Positions 7,101-16,100 are shown, numbered from the stretch's first letter. The stretch: 64,000 nucleotides of DNA from Escherichia coli (GCF_003018255.1 NZ_CP027440.1); one strand, 5' to 3'. Numbers are program-made.

Positions 7101-10100
7101 GTTTATTCACTCTATACGCCATCAGAGCAGTTTTATCCGCCTGGCGCACCAATCCCGTGGCCATCAGATACCGTTCCGTCTGGCTATGCCCTGATGCAGG
7201 GGCAGACTTTTGACAAATCTGCATACCCGAAACTTGCAGCCGCTTATCCGTCAGGCGTGATCCCTGATATGCGTGGCTGGACGATTAAGGGCAAACCTGC
7301 CAGTGGTCGGGCCGTATTGTCTCAGGAACAGGACGGCATTAAATCGCACACCCACAGCGCCAGCGCATCCAGTACGGAATTGGGGACGAAAACCACATCG
7401 TCGTTTGATTACGGCACTAAATCCACGAATAACACCGGGGCGCACACGCACAGTGTGAGCGGTACAGCCGCAAGTGCCGGAAACCATACTCATAGTGTCA
7501 CAGGCGCATCAGCAGTCAGCCAGTGGTCACAAAATGGGTCAGTACATAAGGTAGTGTCTGCGGCCAGTGTGAATACAAGTGCTGCAGGAGCGCACACTCA
7601 TAGTGTCAGCGGCACAGCTGCATCTGCAGGTGCTCACGCACATACTGTCGGTATTGGTGCTCATACGCACTCTGTTGCGATTGGCTCACATGGACACACC
7701 ATCACCGTTAACGCTGCTGGTAACGCGGAAAACACCGTCAAAAACATCGCATTTAACTACATTGTGAGGCTTGCATAATGGCATTCAGAATGAGTGAACA
7801 ACCACGGACCATAAAAATTTATAATCTGCTGGCCGGAACTAATGAATTTATTGGTGAAGGTGACGCATATATTCCGCCTCATACAGGTCTGCCAGCAAAC
7901 AGTACCTATATTGCACCGCCAGATATTCCGGCTGGCTTCGTGGCTGTTTTCAACAGTGATGAGGCATCGTGGCATCTCGTTGAAGATCATCGGGGTAAAA
8001 CGGTTTATGACGTGGCTTCCGGCGACGCGTTATTTATTTCTGAACTCGGCTCATTACCGGAAAATGTCACCTGGTTATCCCCGGAAGGGGAGTTTCAGAA
8101 GTGGAACGGCACAGCCTGGGTGAAAGATGCAGAAGCAGAAAAACTATTCCGGATCCGGGAGGCGGAAGAAACAAAAAACAGCCTGATGCAGGCAGCGAAT
8201 GAGCATATTGCGCCACTTCAGGATGCTGTGGATCTGGAGATCGCAACGGAAGAAGAGGCGTCGTTGCTGGCAGCATGGAAGAAGTATCGGGTGTTGCTGA
8301 ACCGTGTTGATACATCAGTAGCACCGGATATTGAGTGGCCTGCTGTCCCTGTTATGGAGTAATCGTTTTGAGATACGCCGCATACACGTTGTATGCAATA
8401 ACGTGCTGCGGCTTGGTAAATTTTAGCTAGTTTCAGCAGGAGACATAAAAAACTTCAATATAAGATTAAGCATCACGTATTGCCAATCTGATTTTTGACT
8501 GATACCAATTGGGGCCTTCTGCAATTATTTCTTCCTCAACATGCATGATGGGATGCATTTCAATTTCAGAGTTTTTGACTTTTAGATCTAGTCCATATTT
8601 TTTTGAAATTTGTAAAACTTCATTTTTGAAATCCTTATCTGCGAAAGGTGAAATCCTTATTTCTTCCAACAGATTGTTAAGAGATACAGGGACTAGTTTT
8701 CCCTTTACAGGTGGAGTGTTAAAGGTATTCTCTTGAAAAATAGCTCTAAACTCTTTTTCGTATTCGAAAGATGGTCTCTTGTTAAAGAATACATCTGATT
8801 CTGGATTGTATTGTTTTATCCAGAAATTTTTGACGTATTTTACGTGTTTTAATTGTAGTTTGTTTAAATTATTATTTTCAAGTTGGCTTTGGAGGTTTTT
8901 TTTCTTTGATTTTATGACAACGCCTTTAGCGGGGTTTTTACAATACAGCTTCCACATAGCTTCAGATTCATGTTCGTTACAATGCCAGCAACTTATATAT
9001 GTCCTCTCGCTTATTTCCTTAAGTGTCTTTAAATTGAATGCCATGAAAGGATCTAAGTCCATGCCGGCACCATGAGTAGCGCATAGTTTTTCCTGTGTCT
9101 CAATGAATTTTTTATAGCCAGTATGTCCCCAAGCAAATTCACCTTCGAATGGATCTTCAAAATTTTTTGCTGAGCAAAAAAATAAAGCATTTTGTTCGAG
9201 TAACATAGAGAATTTCTCTATGTCAAGGTATCGCCATATATACTCAGTGTGCATGATAGCTCCTTGCAATATAACTATTTCTATCTGTTCATTTGTACTT
9301 AAAAAGGATTGAGTAGCCTGAACAGTTCTATCCGTAAATATACCAGATAGAAGAGTTGTACAATAACAAATCCTCCGTATAAGAACCAGCCATAATAGTC
9401 TGGTTCTTAAGGTTTTTTTTTGTTCGAGGGGGGGGGGCTACGATTCGTCCCCATATCGGCGATAAATTAGGCTTGTACCAACGCTTCTGTTTCTGTGAGT
9501 GAAATCTGATAGCGTTTTACTGCCTCAGCAAAGGCGTGCGCGGCATCTGCATTTGATACCATATATTCTTCAGTTACCCCTGTTTGAGAATGGAAAGTAA
9601 TATTTCCATAAATGCAAATAGGGATTTGGTAGTTGTCTTTAAAACGACGGTCTGGTGAGCCATTCTTATTCGTTTTCGCCCATGTATAACCATCTATGCG
9701 TGAGTCACTGGGAACACCTTCTTCCTCATGGAATCTTAGATATTCTGAACTAATTTGTAATTCGCGTAAATCAATCAGAGCGAATGCTCCATCAGCTCGT
9801 GGTATGACTGCAACTCCAGGATAAAGCAAAATATCGTCTCCATTTACATTTTCAAACCTCATCGCACGCCCTGTAAATTGAATGAGATCCGTTGAACTAA
9901 AATCAAAGGTAACTGGGTGACGATTAACAGACCGGGTTGCTAATGTTCTTTCAGCAAACTGGTCTGTAGCTTTATCTGCAGTAATATCCCATTTTTTGAC
10001 ACTCGATTTTAACATATCAAATGCATGGACCATCGCTGCATATGCGCGCTGTGAAGCATCACTGCTCTCGAATGTTATGGCTATTTTTGTGCTGTCTTCC

Positions 10101-13100: not shown

Positions 13101-16100
13101 GTATGCATGCTGGGTGGGGAAAGTATGAAGGAAAAGAAGACTGCCGCGCCGTTTGTCGTCACATTTATCTTCATTGGCTATGCAAGTCGTAATACAAGGT
13201 GGGACAAAACAGAGACACATAAGGTCTCACAAAGGTCTGCAAGGCCTCACATGTATTGAGATGTTAATAAAATGTAGACTTGTAATTTGGATATAAATGG
13301 TAGAGAAAACCTTTCCCCAAAATAAAAACGAACGTCAATGAAATCAAACGGTTGAATAAAGTTGATTTTGGCTAATAAAAAGACAATAAAATAATTTTTA
13401 TCATTAAATATCAATGAATTGAACTTAATGTTTTTATATACTGTTACGCCATATGGGCTGGACTGAAGCCGCAGACCTGATTGTTAAAGGTATGGAAGGC
13501 GCAATCAACGCCAAGACTGTAACCTATGACTTCGAACGTCTGATGGAAGGCGCTAAACTGCTGAAATGCAGCGAGTTTGGTGATGCGATCATCAAGAACA
13601 TGTAATCTCTACATGTGTTAAATATTGAAACGGGCGTATAACACGCCCGTTGTTTTATTTATGTGGATATTATTAATAGCATGTCGAGCATATTTATATG
13701 AAGCCCATTACTTGAGTCCATATGGGCATATTTTTATAATACAACTATTATGCAAACATTTATTTGGTATTTCGCTTTCTCCAGGAGGACACTCTTGACT
13801 GCTTTTGAGTAAACTCCATAAATCCTTGTTAAATGGTGCGATGTTATAAATAGTAATAGGGTATTCTTTATCCTTAAGGATAATACCAGACTTAACCGGT
13901 GTAAATATACTTCCAGGAGGGAGAAATATAGTAGATTGATACCAGATGATCATTTTCATATCACCCCATATGGCTGAAAAAGATATGCCGCATGTAGGTT
14001 GAATTAACGTGTCAATTACTATCCACTTCATTTGTTATGTCTTATCCCACGGTATTTAATATAGTTCATTAGGATGTTCATTTCTTGATTTTGCATATGA
14101 GTATATTATCCCCTCAAAAATATTAATTAAAAATTAAAACCGTTGCCTATATAAAACAAAATTTAAAGCAAGAAATCTCAATAGATATTAAACAAAATGA
14201 TATTTAGTGAAAACAATAAATTATTCACTTCGTTTTAGATTTGTTTAGCTATAATGTTATACATTCAAATGACTGAACATCATGTAATTAAAACATAGCC
14301 TTTATGCTACTTTGTGCCAATTTGCTAAATATTATGGTTGCATTTTTATATAACGATAATAATGAATATAAGCATGACATGAGAATAAGGTTTCAATTTT
14401 TGAGTTATATAGGAATGGTTAAACCCGTTCCTGACTAAAATACATATAATCGGATGATGACTAAACCAAAACACATGTGCGTTAAGTATTGAAACGGGCG
14501 TATGGCACGCCCGTTGGTTTTATAAATATGTTAACCGTTATAAAATAACGTATAGAAAGTCAAGTGATCACATTTCAAATATCAAGTTGATAGTATTGGC
14601 CTGGTGATTATTTATGGGTGGCAATAAAAAGACAGTATTTATCATCCATAGGGATAGTCTCTGCACTTTTATTTCCATTATGCTAATGTCTTACTGAATT
14701 ATGAAGCATTTTTTAAGCATCCAACTTTAGCTAGATTAATGGTTTATTATTTTCTACATCTTCAATATATAAAAGCGTATTATCAATGGCGTAGTAACTG
14801 CGTTTGTTATGATTAACATCAGTAACCCACCGGAAAACGCCCGCGTCTGCCAGTGTTGAACAGTACTCCCGAAATGTAGATTTTCCGGAAATATGAAGCA
14901 ATGCGGCCTCTTTTATTTTAGCAGGGTTCTTTTTCGTACTAACTTTTAACAGGTTCCTGGTTCCTCTTAATAACAAAACCGTGTCATCGTGAGTAATAAT
15001 TCTGATGTTATCCGTAGCCAGATAATAAATGTAATGTGCAACACGGTGATGTTTTAATTCTGAATAAAACCAGGAGAAGTTTTGCTCTTTTCTCACTTGC
15101 TCAAACATCTTTTGAAAAACAACGACCTGATCCATCAGGATAATAACCTCTTGTTAGTTGTGAGACTGCGTAGTGTGCACGATCGGTTTTACCACTTCAA
15201 TCTGGTCTGTCCTTTGGCTGTGATATGTACAAAGTGTGAAAGGGGGATTACCTGAATTCTCCCGGTGAGCATTTTGCAACGGACCAGCTCCGGTACAAAA
15301 GCTGTTGTGGGTTCAGATTATAAGATTCTGTCTAAGGGGCGGGATAAAGGTGAAATTAGGGGGCATGAAAGATGACTTTATAACCTTGCTCACCCCAGTG
15401 TTGTAAAAGTTCGTTTTGCCTTCTCGTTGGTGCCATGCCTGTCCAGACAATCAATGTTTGCGTCGGGAACAGTTCCGGGCGCGGCGATTCAATGGGATCA
15501 GCAAGAACAGAAATGTGCCATCCTGACAATGATAAACGCCATGCTTCCAGCCACAATCGTGCTCTCTCTTCAACATTCCACGCCATCAGAATGGCTTCTT
15601 TACCGGGCTTACGGCGCATTTCGAAAAGTGAGGCTGCTGCGTATTCAATTAATGCGCCGTCAAACATACTGCTCATAATGCGGGAGGTGTTGTGATCAAG
15701 CACGAGACGCTGGCGAACAGGAAGGTAAACATGATTAATCAATTGATCTACTGGGTACTCTCGACCCAGTGAAATAATTCTCGCGCGTAGTTTGGCAGGA
15801 TTAGCCATACGAAGAATTGACATCATCTCTTCTTGCAGGCGACTCCAGTCATCTTCCGTATCCTGGCTGGTGGTTTCCAGTAATGCTTTAACTTTGCCTA
15901 CAGGAACGCCATTACTTATCCAACGCTTGATCTCTTCGATGCGTTGTATGTCTTCTTCATCAAAGAGTCGGTGTCCGCCTTCACTGCGCTGTGGTTTTAA
16001 CAAACCGTAGCGGCGTTGCCAGGCCCGGAGAGTGACAGGATTAATCCCGCAACGTTCAGCAACATCACCAATGCTGTAATAAGCCACAATTCCTCCTTGC

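What the first reader, a model, noticed from the sequence alone, without database searches (positions are those of the whole stretch)
8363..13440. AT-rich cargo region at the prophage right end carrying four ORFs of unknown function
Base composition and codon usage change abruptly after tfa (8362) and stay AT-rich up to the attR junction at 13441. This corresponds to the lambda b-region, a known hotspot for morons and anti-phage defence cargo in lambdoid prophages. None of the four ORFs (8466-9254, 9467-10669, 11115-11744, 12238-12972) resembles a phage structural or lysogeny gene. The left gene pair is on the - strand and the right pair on the + strand, so their divergent promoters meet in the 10670-11114 intergenic region.
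Basis: partly seen in the sequence, partly recalled or inferred. Interest (0 to 1): 0.8.

Follow-up and report, generated by a model that had tools for sequence, protein, structure and literature searches.

The report
Four stacked single-gene prophage cargo modules
The AT-rich stretch at the end of this E. coli prophage is a patchwork of four independently mobile accessory genes sitting in a known anti-phage defence hotspot; three look like defence enzymes, one belongs to a widespread uncharacterised family, and none has been tested.

Summary
GC falls from 0.55 in the tail genes to 0.38 across 8363-13440. All four ORFs are at the stated coordinates, and 13441 is the icd attR junction also used by K-12 e14.

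The region is not two divergent gene pairs. It is four separately mobile single-gene modules in two cargo slots.

- Slot 1 (8417-10846) is flanked by an imperfect 36-bp direct repeat and holds A and B.
- A is a DUF2971, ADP-ribosyltransferase-like protein (PADLOC PDC-S31). The lactococcal Abi protein Aristaios is a validated relative.
- B has a DUF4236 N-terminus, a coiled coil and a conserved domain with no Pfam model and no significant PDB match.
- Slot 2 lies between conserved linkers at 10844-11037 and 13052-13259 and holds C and D.
- C is a GIY-YIG nuclease, supported by catalytic residues and fold.
- D is a DUF3800 protein; the literature describes DUF3800 as an RNase H-like fold, and its conserved carboxylates are intact.

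Each gene occurs alone elsewhere. In other E. coli prophages the same slot or position carries Ppl, PD-T4-3, McrA or a McrBC-like pair.

The most likely function is four autonomous defence or exclusion genes. That is inferred, not shown. Only B is really unknown. Overall this is a new member of a known kind, of moderate interest.

The parts
8378..8413 (.). Left copy of an imperfect 36-bp direct repeat (CCGCA...CTGCGGCT, itself hairpin-like), immediately downstream of tfa. It is the left boundary of the A+B cassette.
   Evidence: It aligns with 10847-10882 at 27/36 identity. Strains A3 and D4 have the two flanks abutting, with no A+B between them.
8466..9254 (-). Gene A: DUF2971 protein, ADP-ribosyltransferase-like (PADLOC candidate PDC-S31).
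   Evidence: Pfam PF11185 at 8.6e-6. PADLOC PDC-S31 at 3.5e-20. phrog_34615 at 6.6e-29. F32-x-D34-P35 and E166-x-E168-x-R170 are conserved in a 3-sequence alignment. A T8 run at 8896-8903 is T7 in an ST131 strain, giving a frameshift.
9381..9420 (+). Hairpin followed by T9 between A and B, resembling the sequence that abuts tRNA-Pro in another prophage. Possibly a terminator or att remnant.
   Evidence: Read from the sequence, plus an 88% match to L031 7987-8028.
9449..10815 (-). Module B: gene B (9467-10669) plus about 146 bp upstream. The protein has an N-terminal DUF4236 beta-hairpin repeat, a disordered linker, an antiparallel coiled coil, and a conserved C-terminal alpha/beta domain that has no Pfam model.
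   Evidence: 90% nucleotide identity to a solo gene in Klebsiella, 81% to Serratia, 65% to Paracoccus. Pfam DUF4236 at 5.6e-21. 485 cluster representatives at E<=1e-30. AF2 mean pLDDT 86.9. No significant PDB neighbour in whole-chain searches.
10844..11037 (.). Linker 1: a conserved non-coding segment that lies just downstream of pinE in other prophages. It contains the right copy of the 36-bp repeat (10847-10882) and forms the left border of cargo slot 2.
   Evidence: blastn against L002-L005 at 82-97% identity. Its position relative to pinE is shown.
11115..11744 (+). Gene C: GIY-YIG nuclease with an N-terminal extension. The conserved unit is about 11016-11865.
11866..12067 (.). Orphan segment of about 200 bp between the C and D units. 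Its origin is unexplained.
   Evidence: It accompanies C only within E. coli and is absent from an 85%-identical C locus. The stretch 11745-12083 folds with z -3.0 on the + strand and -2.4 on the - strand. There is an inverted repeat at 11869-11884 / 12012-12027.
12068..13075 (+). Module D: gene D (12238-12972, DUF3800) with its own upstream region, including the best promoter-like site in the interval (12172-12199).
   Evidence: 94% nucleotide identity to Yersinia canariae and 80% to an Edwardsiella prophage over exactly this span. Pfam DUF3800 at 7.3e-7. D6, H10, E42, D110, Q141, D144 and E184 are invariant, and E7 is at least 90% conserved. Promoter scan.
13052..13440 (.). Linker 2 (13052-13259, found in prophages at several integration sites) followed by a phage-21-type att arm that runs to the attR junction.
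   Evidence: blastn against L002-L005 at 86-92% identity. 90.5% identity to the phage 21 att region. Junction established against K-12.

Best explanation
The interval is the accessory ('moron') end of an icd-integrated lambdoid prophage. It was built by stacking four autonomous single-gene modules into two recombination-delimited cargo slots.

Slot 1 lies between tfa and linker 1 and holds the A+B cassette, bounded by an imperfect 36-bp direct repeat. Slot 2 lies between linker 1 and linker 2 and holds C, then D.

My inference is that each gene acts alone as an anti-phage defence or superinfection-exclusion determinant expressed from the lysogen:
- A is a DarT/AbiGi-like ADP-ribosyltransferase that would modify nucleic acid or a transcription component on infection. 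Its validated relative Aristaios blocks phage transcription.
- C is a GIY-YIG endonuclease that would cut invading DNA, as the GIY-YIG defence protein PD-T4-3 does.
- D is described in the literature as an RNase H-fold nuclease and would degrade a nucleic-acid intermediate.
- B is a conserved protein of unknown biochemistry. Relatives fused to SH3b or peptidoglycan-binding domains point to the cell envelope.

Shown here: the modular anatomy, the independence of the genes, intact catalytic residues, the GIY-YIG fold of C, and the presence of validated defence systems in the same slot.

Inferred: that these four genes defend against phages, and every mechanistic step above.
For: Anatomy
- Empty and alternative junctions and the unit boundaries were mapped by blastn.
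- The A+B cassette is in 121 of 5,426 complete E. coli genomes. C+D together are in 30, and C occurs alone in strain Eco_23-2667.

Independence
- B is solo in Klebsiella, Serratia and Paracoccus.
- In 53 of 58 IMG/VR loci with a B relative, no A homologue lies within 6 kb. No other conserved neighbour was found.
- D is solo in Yersinia, Edwardsiella and Serratia.
- C is solo in Aeromonas, Photobacterium and Priestia, on a Rep3 plasmid, and in another locus beside icd.

Defence context
- The same slot or position carries Ppl, PD-T4-3, PDC-S64, a McrBC-like pair or McrA in other prophages.
- Homologues sit next to SIR2+DUF87, CHAT, VapBC, Mrr, and HEPN plus HNH genes.

Families
- A matches PDC-S31 at 3.5e-20.
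- DUF2971 is described as ART-like and close to DarT/AbiGi (PMC12522546).
- Aristaios is a validated Abi protein that affects phage transcription (PMC11381338, PMC13064643).
- C has the GIY-YIG residues and fold.
- D has conserved carboxylates. DUF3800 is described as RNase H-like and is linked to retron type VII and Cas12a2 (PMC7736814, PMC10910872).
Against: - There is no phenotype for any of the four genes.
- B and C have no PADLOC hit. D's PADLOC hit covers only residues 1-37 (E 6.5e-5).
- None of the four reaches an NCBIfam model.
- The same position carries non-defence cargo, sitABCD, in Nissle 1917, so position alone does not prove defence.
- A lacks a DUF2971 annotation in about 13 of 39 sampled cassette-bearing genomes. 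In the one case examined the cause is a frameshift. IS elements interrupt the region in some strains. Both are compatible with weak selection.
- B also sits among housekeeping genes in Serratia and Paracoccus, which is unusual for a defence gene.
- The ART fold of A and the RNase H fold of D were not modelled here.
Confidence: 0.6

Rival explanations
1. Two two-gene systems. A+B would be a toxin/partner or sensor/effector operon on the - strand, and C+D a two-nuclease operon on the + strand, each needing both genes.
For: In E. coli, A and B always move together as a single 2.43-kb cassette (121 genomes). C and D are adjacent in 30 genomes. A DUF2971-like gene lies directly upstream of a DUF3800 homologue in Neptunomonas, so these families do co-locate.
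Against: - B relatives of 23-95% identity never have an A homologue nearby, and no partner recurs.
- A is frameshifted in an ST131 strain while B is intact.
- C occurs without D, and D occurs without C.
- The gaps are 212 nt between A and B and 493 nt between C and D. The C-D gap contains an unrelated orphan segment, and D has its own promoter-like site.
- There is no macrodomain (DarG-like) partner for A.
Confidence: 0.12
2. Selfish or addiction elements rather than host-beneficial defence. C would be a free-standing GIY-YIG homing endonuclease. A and D would be toxins that stabilise the prophage. B would be a selfish solo gene that spreads by recombination.
For: C's best structural match is a phage nuclease, T4 EndoII, and GIY-YIG enzymes include homing endonucleases (established knowledge). 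Each gene is a compact unit with its own flanks inserted in many unrelated contexts. B keeps 65-69% amino-acid identity between alpha- and gamma-proteobacteria, which implies recent horizontal spread.
Against: - C lies in intergenic cargo slots and islands, not inside or beside a conserved target gene.
- Pfam reported only the weak GIY-YIG match for C and none of the DNA-binding modules typical of I-TevI-type enzymes.
- No antitoxin-like small ORF is conserved next to A or D.
- Repeated co-location with validated defence genes fits defence better.
Confidence: 0.13
3. Lysogenic-conversion or fitness cargo unrelated to phages, for example host-directed effectors or envelope-remodelling functions, or simply decaying passenger DNA.
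For: Nissle 1917 carries sitABCD at the same position. DUF2971 proteins have been proposed as Legionella effectors (PMC12522546). B relatives carry SH3b or PG_binding_1 domains. A lacks a DUF2971 annotation in about 13 of 39 sampled genomes and IS insertions occur.
Against: - Catalytic residues are invariant across divergent homologues of C and D, and many polar residues are invariant in B, which argues for purifying selection.
- The ORFs are intact and 99.8-100% identical in 30 genomes.
- None of the four proteins matched a secretion-related family in Pfam or NCBIfam.
Confidence: 0.15

Closest known systems
Prophage-end defence hotspots (lambda b-region / e14 pin-mcrA-attR position; P2/P4-type hotspots)
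   Same: Conserved flanks with variable cargo next to att. In the same slot or position, other strains carry Ppl, PD-T4-3, a McrBC-like pair or McrA.
   Different: Here two nested slots are both filled, with four separately mobile single genes. K-12 e14 shares the attR but not the linker sequences.
Aristaios (Lactococcus DUF2971 single-gene Abi) / PADLOC PDC-S31
   Same: Gene A has the DUF2971 domain, matches PDC-S31 HMMs, is a single gene, and keeps the ExE motif.
   Different: A was not compared with the Aristaios sequence itself. The host phylum differs. A's fold was not modelled here and there is no phenotype. It is not a DarTG system because no macrodomain antitoxin is present.
PD-T4-3 and other GIY-YIG defence or restriction nucleases (R.Eco29kI, T4 EndoII)
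   Same: Gene C has the full GIY-YIG catalytic set and fold, and occupies the same slot that holds PD-T4-3 in strain 9000.
DUF3800 proteins of retron type VII, Cas12a2-associated TPR-DUF3800, and DUF3800-associated RNA motifs
   Same: Gene D has the DUF3800 domain with the DE and QxxD motifs and additional invariant carboxylates.
   Different: There is no reverse transcriptase, Cas gene or TPR domain nearby. No Rfam DUF3800-I to -XI motif was found, and D's own flanks show no significant fold.
DUF4236-domain proteins (PF14020; phrog_17982)
   Same: Gene B has the N-terminal DUF4236 domain and matches phrog_17982 over its full length (3.4e-194).
   Different: No member has a described function in the searched literature. 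The C-terminal 200 residues have no Pfam model and no significant PDB neighbour in whole-chain searches.

Membership tests
DUF2971 / PDC-S31 (gene A) | Match to Pfam PF11185 and to the PADLOC PDC-S31 HMMs | tested here: met
   PF11185 at 8.6e-6. PDC-S31 at 3.5e-20, with three further PDC-S31 models also matching.
DUF2971 / PDC-S31 (gene A) | ART-type catalytic motif III (ExE) and a conserved motif II tyrosine, as described in PMC12522546 | tested here: inconclusive
   E166-x-E168-x-R170 and Y140 are invariant, but the alignment has only 3 sequences. The ART fold was not modelled.
DarTG toxin-antitoxin (gene A) | Adjacent DarG macrodomain antitoxin | tested here: not met
   The neighbouring gene B has only DUF4236 in Pfam. 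No other ORF of 50 aa or more between A and B has a family match.
GIY-YIG nuclease superfamily (gene C) | GIY and YIG tyrosines, Arg, His/Tyr, catalytic Glu and Asn | tested here: met
   Y85, Y99-x-G101, R109, H114, E165 and N177 are invariant in 44 sequences of 36-85% identity.
GIY-YIG nuclease superfamily (gene C) | GIY-YIG alpha/beta fold | tested here: met
PD-T4-3 defence family (gene C) | Match to the PD-T4-3 HMM | tested here: not met
   C has no PADLOC hit at E<=1. The slot-mate in strain 9000 scores 2e-140.
DUF3800 (gene D) | Pfam PF12686 match with an N-terminal DE motif and a C-terminal QxxD motif | tested here: met
   PF12686 at 7.3e-7. D6, Q141 and D144 are invariant and E7 is at least 90% conserved in 45 sequences.
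Retron type VII / DUF3800-RNA systems (gene D) | Adjacent reverse transcriptase plus ncRNA, or one of the Rfam DUF3800-I to -XI motifs | tested here: not met
   No RT-like ORF was found in 8363-13440. No Rfam DUF3800 motif appeared even at E<=10. D's flanks fold no better than shuffles, with z -0.64 and -0.06.
Prophage defence hotspot | Conserved flanks with different cargo in related elements, including validated defence systems | tested here: met
   Linker 1 and linker 2 flank five different cargos. Ppl and PD-T4-3 were identified in that slot. McrA and a McrBC-like pair lie at the same attR-proximal position.
Obligate two-gene systems (A+B, C+D) | Co-occurrence of the two genes across divergent lineages | tested here: not met
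   One search shows A beside B only where B is at least 99% identical.
Anti-phage defence (all four genes) | Reduced phage plating or burst when the gene is expressed | not testable with these tools
   This needs experiments.

The most novel reading that the evidence does not exclude
Gene B would represent a large, unrecognised family of autonomous accessory proteins carried at prophage ends. The architecture is DUF4236 beta-hairpin repeat, coiled coil, and a C-terminal domain with no Pfam model and no significant PDB match. The family would act at the cell envelope as a new kind of single-gene phage-exclusion or defence determinant.

The supporting facts are these. There are 485 cluster representatives at 50% identity with E<=1e-30. 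Amino-acid identity is 65-69% between alpha- and gamma-proteobacteria. Relatives carry SH3b or PG-binding fusions. It has no PADLOC hit, and I found no functional description in the searched literature.
Probability: 0.25. Interest if true: 0.7.

Novelty: new member of a known kind. Interest (0 to 1): 0.4.

Why it matters
The work turns a vague 'four unknown ORFs' into a precise map. There are two cargo slots with defined borders in icd-type and related E. coli prophages, and four separately testable single-gene candidates.

If the genes do defend, A would extend the DUF2971/Aristaios class to Enterobacteria. C would add a new GIY-YIG defence family beside PD-T4-3. D would be a stand-alone DUF3800 effector with no retron or Cas partner. 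B would open a widespread uncharacterised family.

The linker sequences also give a practical handle for mining this hotspot across thousands of E. coli genomes.

Tried and rejected
- **A hidden DUF3800-associated RNA near D.** Rfam scans at E<=1 and E<=10 found no DUF3800 motif. The flanks that travel with D fold no better than shuffles. Rejected for D's own unit.
- **The segment 11745-12083.** It does fold unusually well (z -3.0). However, the part beyond 11865 is absent from an 85%-identical C locus, and only near-identical copies exist, so covariation cannot be assessed. Left unexplained.
- **A pinE remnant in the 10670-11114 gap.** Rejected. The match lies just downstream of pinE, not within it.
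- **An obligate A+B pair.** Rejected.
- **C homologous to the small gene upstream of the Neptunomonas DUF3800.** Rejected. BLASTP gave E 0.71, and that protein is DUF2971-like.
- **NCBIfam.** No hit for any of the four proteins.
- **PDB sequence search.** Nothing for A or D at E<=1. B gave only four chance-level hits (E 0.34-0.99).
- **Literature.** One incidental mention of DUF4236, none of PDC-S31, and the PF14020 hits were unrelated Plasmodium gene identifiers.
- **K-12 e14.** It shares the attR but not the linkers.

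
Full report
**Observation**

The window is E. coli chromosome. Tail genes (J, lom, stf 4857-7778, tfa 7778-8362) are followed by the interval in question. After it come an icd 3' fragment, iraM, ycgX, bluR and bluF.

GC is 0.548 over the tail genes and 0.381 over 8363-13440. GC3 is 0.30-0.32 for the four genes against 0.46-0.49 for stf and tfa.

Alignment with K-12 shows that window 13441 corresponds to the first base of icdC, the point where e14 ends. The attR call is therefore right.

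Low GC resumes in iraM-ycgX (0.337) after the icdC fragment (0.479). The last 386 bp of the interval is a conserved arm, 90.5% identical to the phage 21 att region and present in about 2,500 genomes.

**Family assignments**

Gene A matches DUF2971 (Pfam 8.6e-6) and the PADLOC candidate PDC-S31 (3.5e-20). DUF2971 has been described as an ADP-ribosyltransferase-like family close to DarT and AbiGi (PMC12522546). One member, Aristaios, is an experimentally validated single-gene Abi in Lactococcus that interferes with phage transcription (PMC11381338, PMC13064643). A keeps the E-x-E-x-R motif, although the supporting alignment has only three sequences.

Gene B has an N-terminal DUF4236 domain (5.6e-21) and matches phrog_17982 over its full length. 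It has no other annotation.

Gene C gave only weak GIY-YIG hits by sequence. The stronger evidence is twofold:
- 44 homologues keep Y85, Y99-x-G101, R109, H114, E165 and N177 invariant.

Gene D is DUF3800 (7.3e-7). D6, H10, E42, D110, Q141, D144 and E184 are invariant, and E7 is at least 90% conserved. DUF3800 has been modelled as an RNase H-like fold. It is linked to retron type VII, to Cas12a2 loci and to eleven orphan RNA motifs (PMC7736814, PMC10910872, PMC5737381).

**Anatomy**

Comparison with other E. coli prophages resolves the interval into separate units.

| Window coordinates | Unit |
|---|---|
| 8378-8413 | Left copy of an imperfect 36-bp direct repeat |
| 8417-10846 | A+B cassette |
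| 9449-10815 | B unit (within the cassette) |
| 10847-10882 | Right copy of the direct repeat |
| 10844-11037 | Linker 1 |
| about 11016-11865 | C unit |
| 11866-12067 | Orphan segment, about 200 bp |
| 12068-13075 | D unit |
| 13052-13259 | Linker 2 |
| 13055-13440 | Phage-21-type att arm |

Strains A3 and D4 have the two flanks of the A+B cassette abutting, with nothing between them. Strain D97-1 has tfa'-A-B-linker 1 in a prophage at tRNA-Thr, followed by different cargo. Linker 1 lies just downstream of pinE in e14-like prophages.

**Independence of the four genes**

B:
- B homologues are solo in Klebsiella (at a prophage end next to smpB), in Serratia (between lptG and a beta-lactamase gene) and in Paracoccus (between Impact_N and recJ).
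- Of 58 IMG/VR loci with B relatives, only the five with at least 99% identical B have A alongside.
- Neighbour clustering finds no recurrent partner. The neighbours are typical prophage-end genes such as integrase, umuD-like, dinI-like, SRAP and pin.
- In E. coli the A+B cassette is present in 121 of 5,426 genomes. A lacks a DUF2971 annotation in about 13 of 39 sampled rows.
- In an ST131 strain a T8-to-T7 change frameshifts A while B remains intact.

D:
- D is solo in Yersinia, next to an IS element and a CHAT protein.
- D is solo in an Edwardsiella prophage, next to SIR2_2 and DUF87.
- D is solo in Serratia, next to VapBC.

C:
- C is solo in islands with Mrr, with HEPN plus HNH, and on a plasmid. 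In another locus it sits two genes downstream of an intact icd.
- C occurs without D in E. coli strain Eco_23-2667.

These results do not support the two-operon reading.

**Hotspot test**

Cargo found in other E. coli prophages:

| Strain | Position | Cargo |
|---|---|---|
| IZSBS22 | linker 1-linker 2 slot | Ppl (5e-157) |
| 9000 | linker 1-linker 2 slot | PD-T4-3 (2e-140) |
| D97-1 | linker 1-linker 2 slot | an S1 protease plus PDC-S64 (1.8e-21) |
| EC195 | attR-proximal | a McrBC-like pair |
| K-12 | attR-proximal | McrA |
| Nissle 1917 | attR-proximal | sitABCD |

The position is therefore a real variable-cargo hotspot. Most of the cargo is defence-related, though not all of it.

**Gene B**

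The family is large, with 485 representatives at E<=1e-30. It is strongly conserved, with 65-69% amino-acid identity between alpha- and gamma-proteobacteria.

AF2 (mean pLDDT 86.9) predicts four parts:
- six N-terminal beta strands;
- a disordered linker;
- an antiparallel coiled coil at 117-193;
- an alpha/beta domain at 204-399.

Many polar residues are invariant, including R241, R250, N274, N334, D340, R342 and N346.

Longer relatives add C-terminal domains: SH3_3 in 23 of 35, PG_binding_1 in 2-3 of 35, and PDZ in 1 of 35. These hint at the cell envelope.

**Mechanism and confidence**

The best-supported reading is that these are four autonomous defence or exclusion genes stacked in a prophage hotspot. 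The modular anatomy, gene independence, intact catalytic residues, C's fold and the defence content of the slot are shown. The defence function and every biochemical step are inferred.

I put about 0.6 on this reading. The remainder is spread over the rivals: obligate pairs, selfish or addiction elements, and non-phage cargo or decay.

**Novelty**

Prophage-end defence hotspots and three of the four protein families are already known. This is a new member of a known kind. Gene B is the one truly open element.

Noticed in passing
window 8121-8319 (+), inside tfa: Strong Rfam match to IS009 (203 bits against a gathering score of 117), overlapping the 3' half of the tail fibre assembly gene.
   Followed up: no
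window 8896-8903 (gene A): A T8 homopolymer (A8 on the coding strand). An ST131 strain (NZ_CP015085) has T7 there, which frameshifts A. A lacks a DUF2971 annotation in about 13 of 39 sampled cassette-bearing genomes, which could reflect slippage-prone inactivation.
   Followed up: partly
window 9381-9420 (+), between A and B: A hairpin followed by T9 on the strand opposite both genes. It is 88% similar to the sequence abutting tRNA-Pro at another prophage's end (L031 7987-8028). It could be an att or terminator remnant, or a block to late-operon read-through.
   Followed up: partly
window 11745-12083, mainly 11866-12067: A non-coding stretch that folds unusually well (z -3.0 on +, -2.4 on -) and has a long-range inverted repeat at 11869-11884 / 12012-12027. 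It accompanies C only within E. coli (35 genomes) and is absent from an 85%-identical C locus. There is no sequence diversity with which to test covariation.
   Followed up: partly
L021 4285-5741 (Neptunomonas metagenome contig): A small DUF2971-like gene lies directly upstream of a DUF3800 homologue (51% identical to D). The two families found in this window therefore also co-locate in an unrelated context.
   Followed up: partly
L093 1427-4630: A C homologue (86% identical) lies two genes downstream of an intact icd, after an HNH_2 gene. This points to another icd-linked island carrying the same nuclease.
   Followed up: no
window 12103-12133: A palindrome with 12-bp arms (TTTATCATTATG / CAAAATGATAAA) about 40 bp upstream of the best promoter-like site for D (12172-12199). 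It may be an operator.
   Followed up: no
window 10784-10918 (+): RefSeq annotates a 44-aa hypothetical protein (WP_001297180.1) that spans the junction between B's upstream region and linker 1. It has no PHROG hit and is probably not a real gene.
   Followed up: partly
homologous loci of window 8363-13440 in strains S1-KEN-03-A/04-A, EC0430 and HCM-28C-2: IS5/ISKpn26 or IS1 insertions interrupt the cargo region in a few genomes.
   Followed up: no
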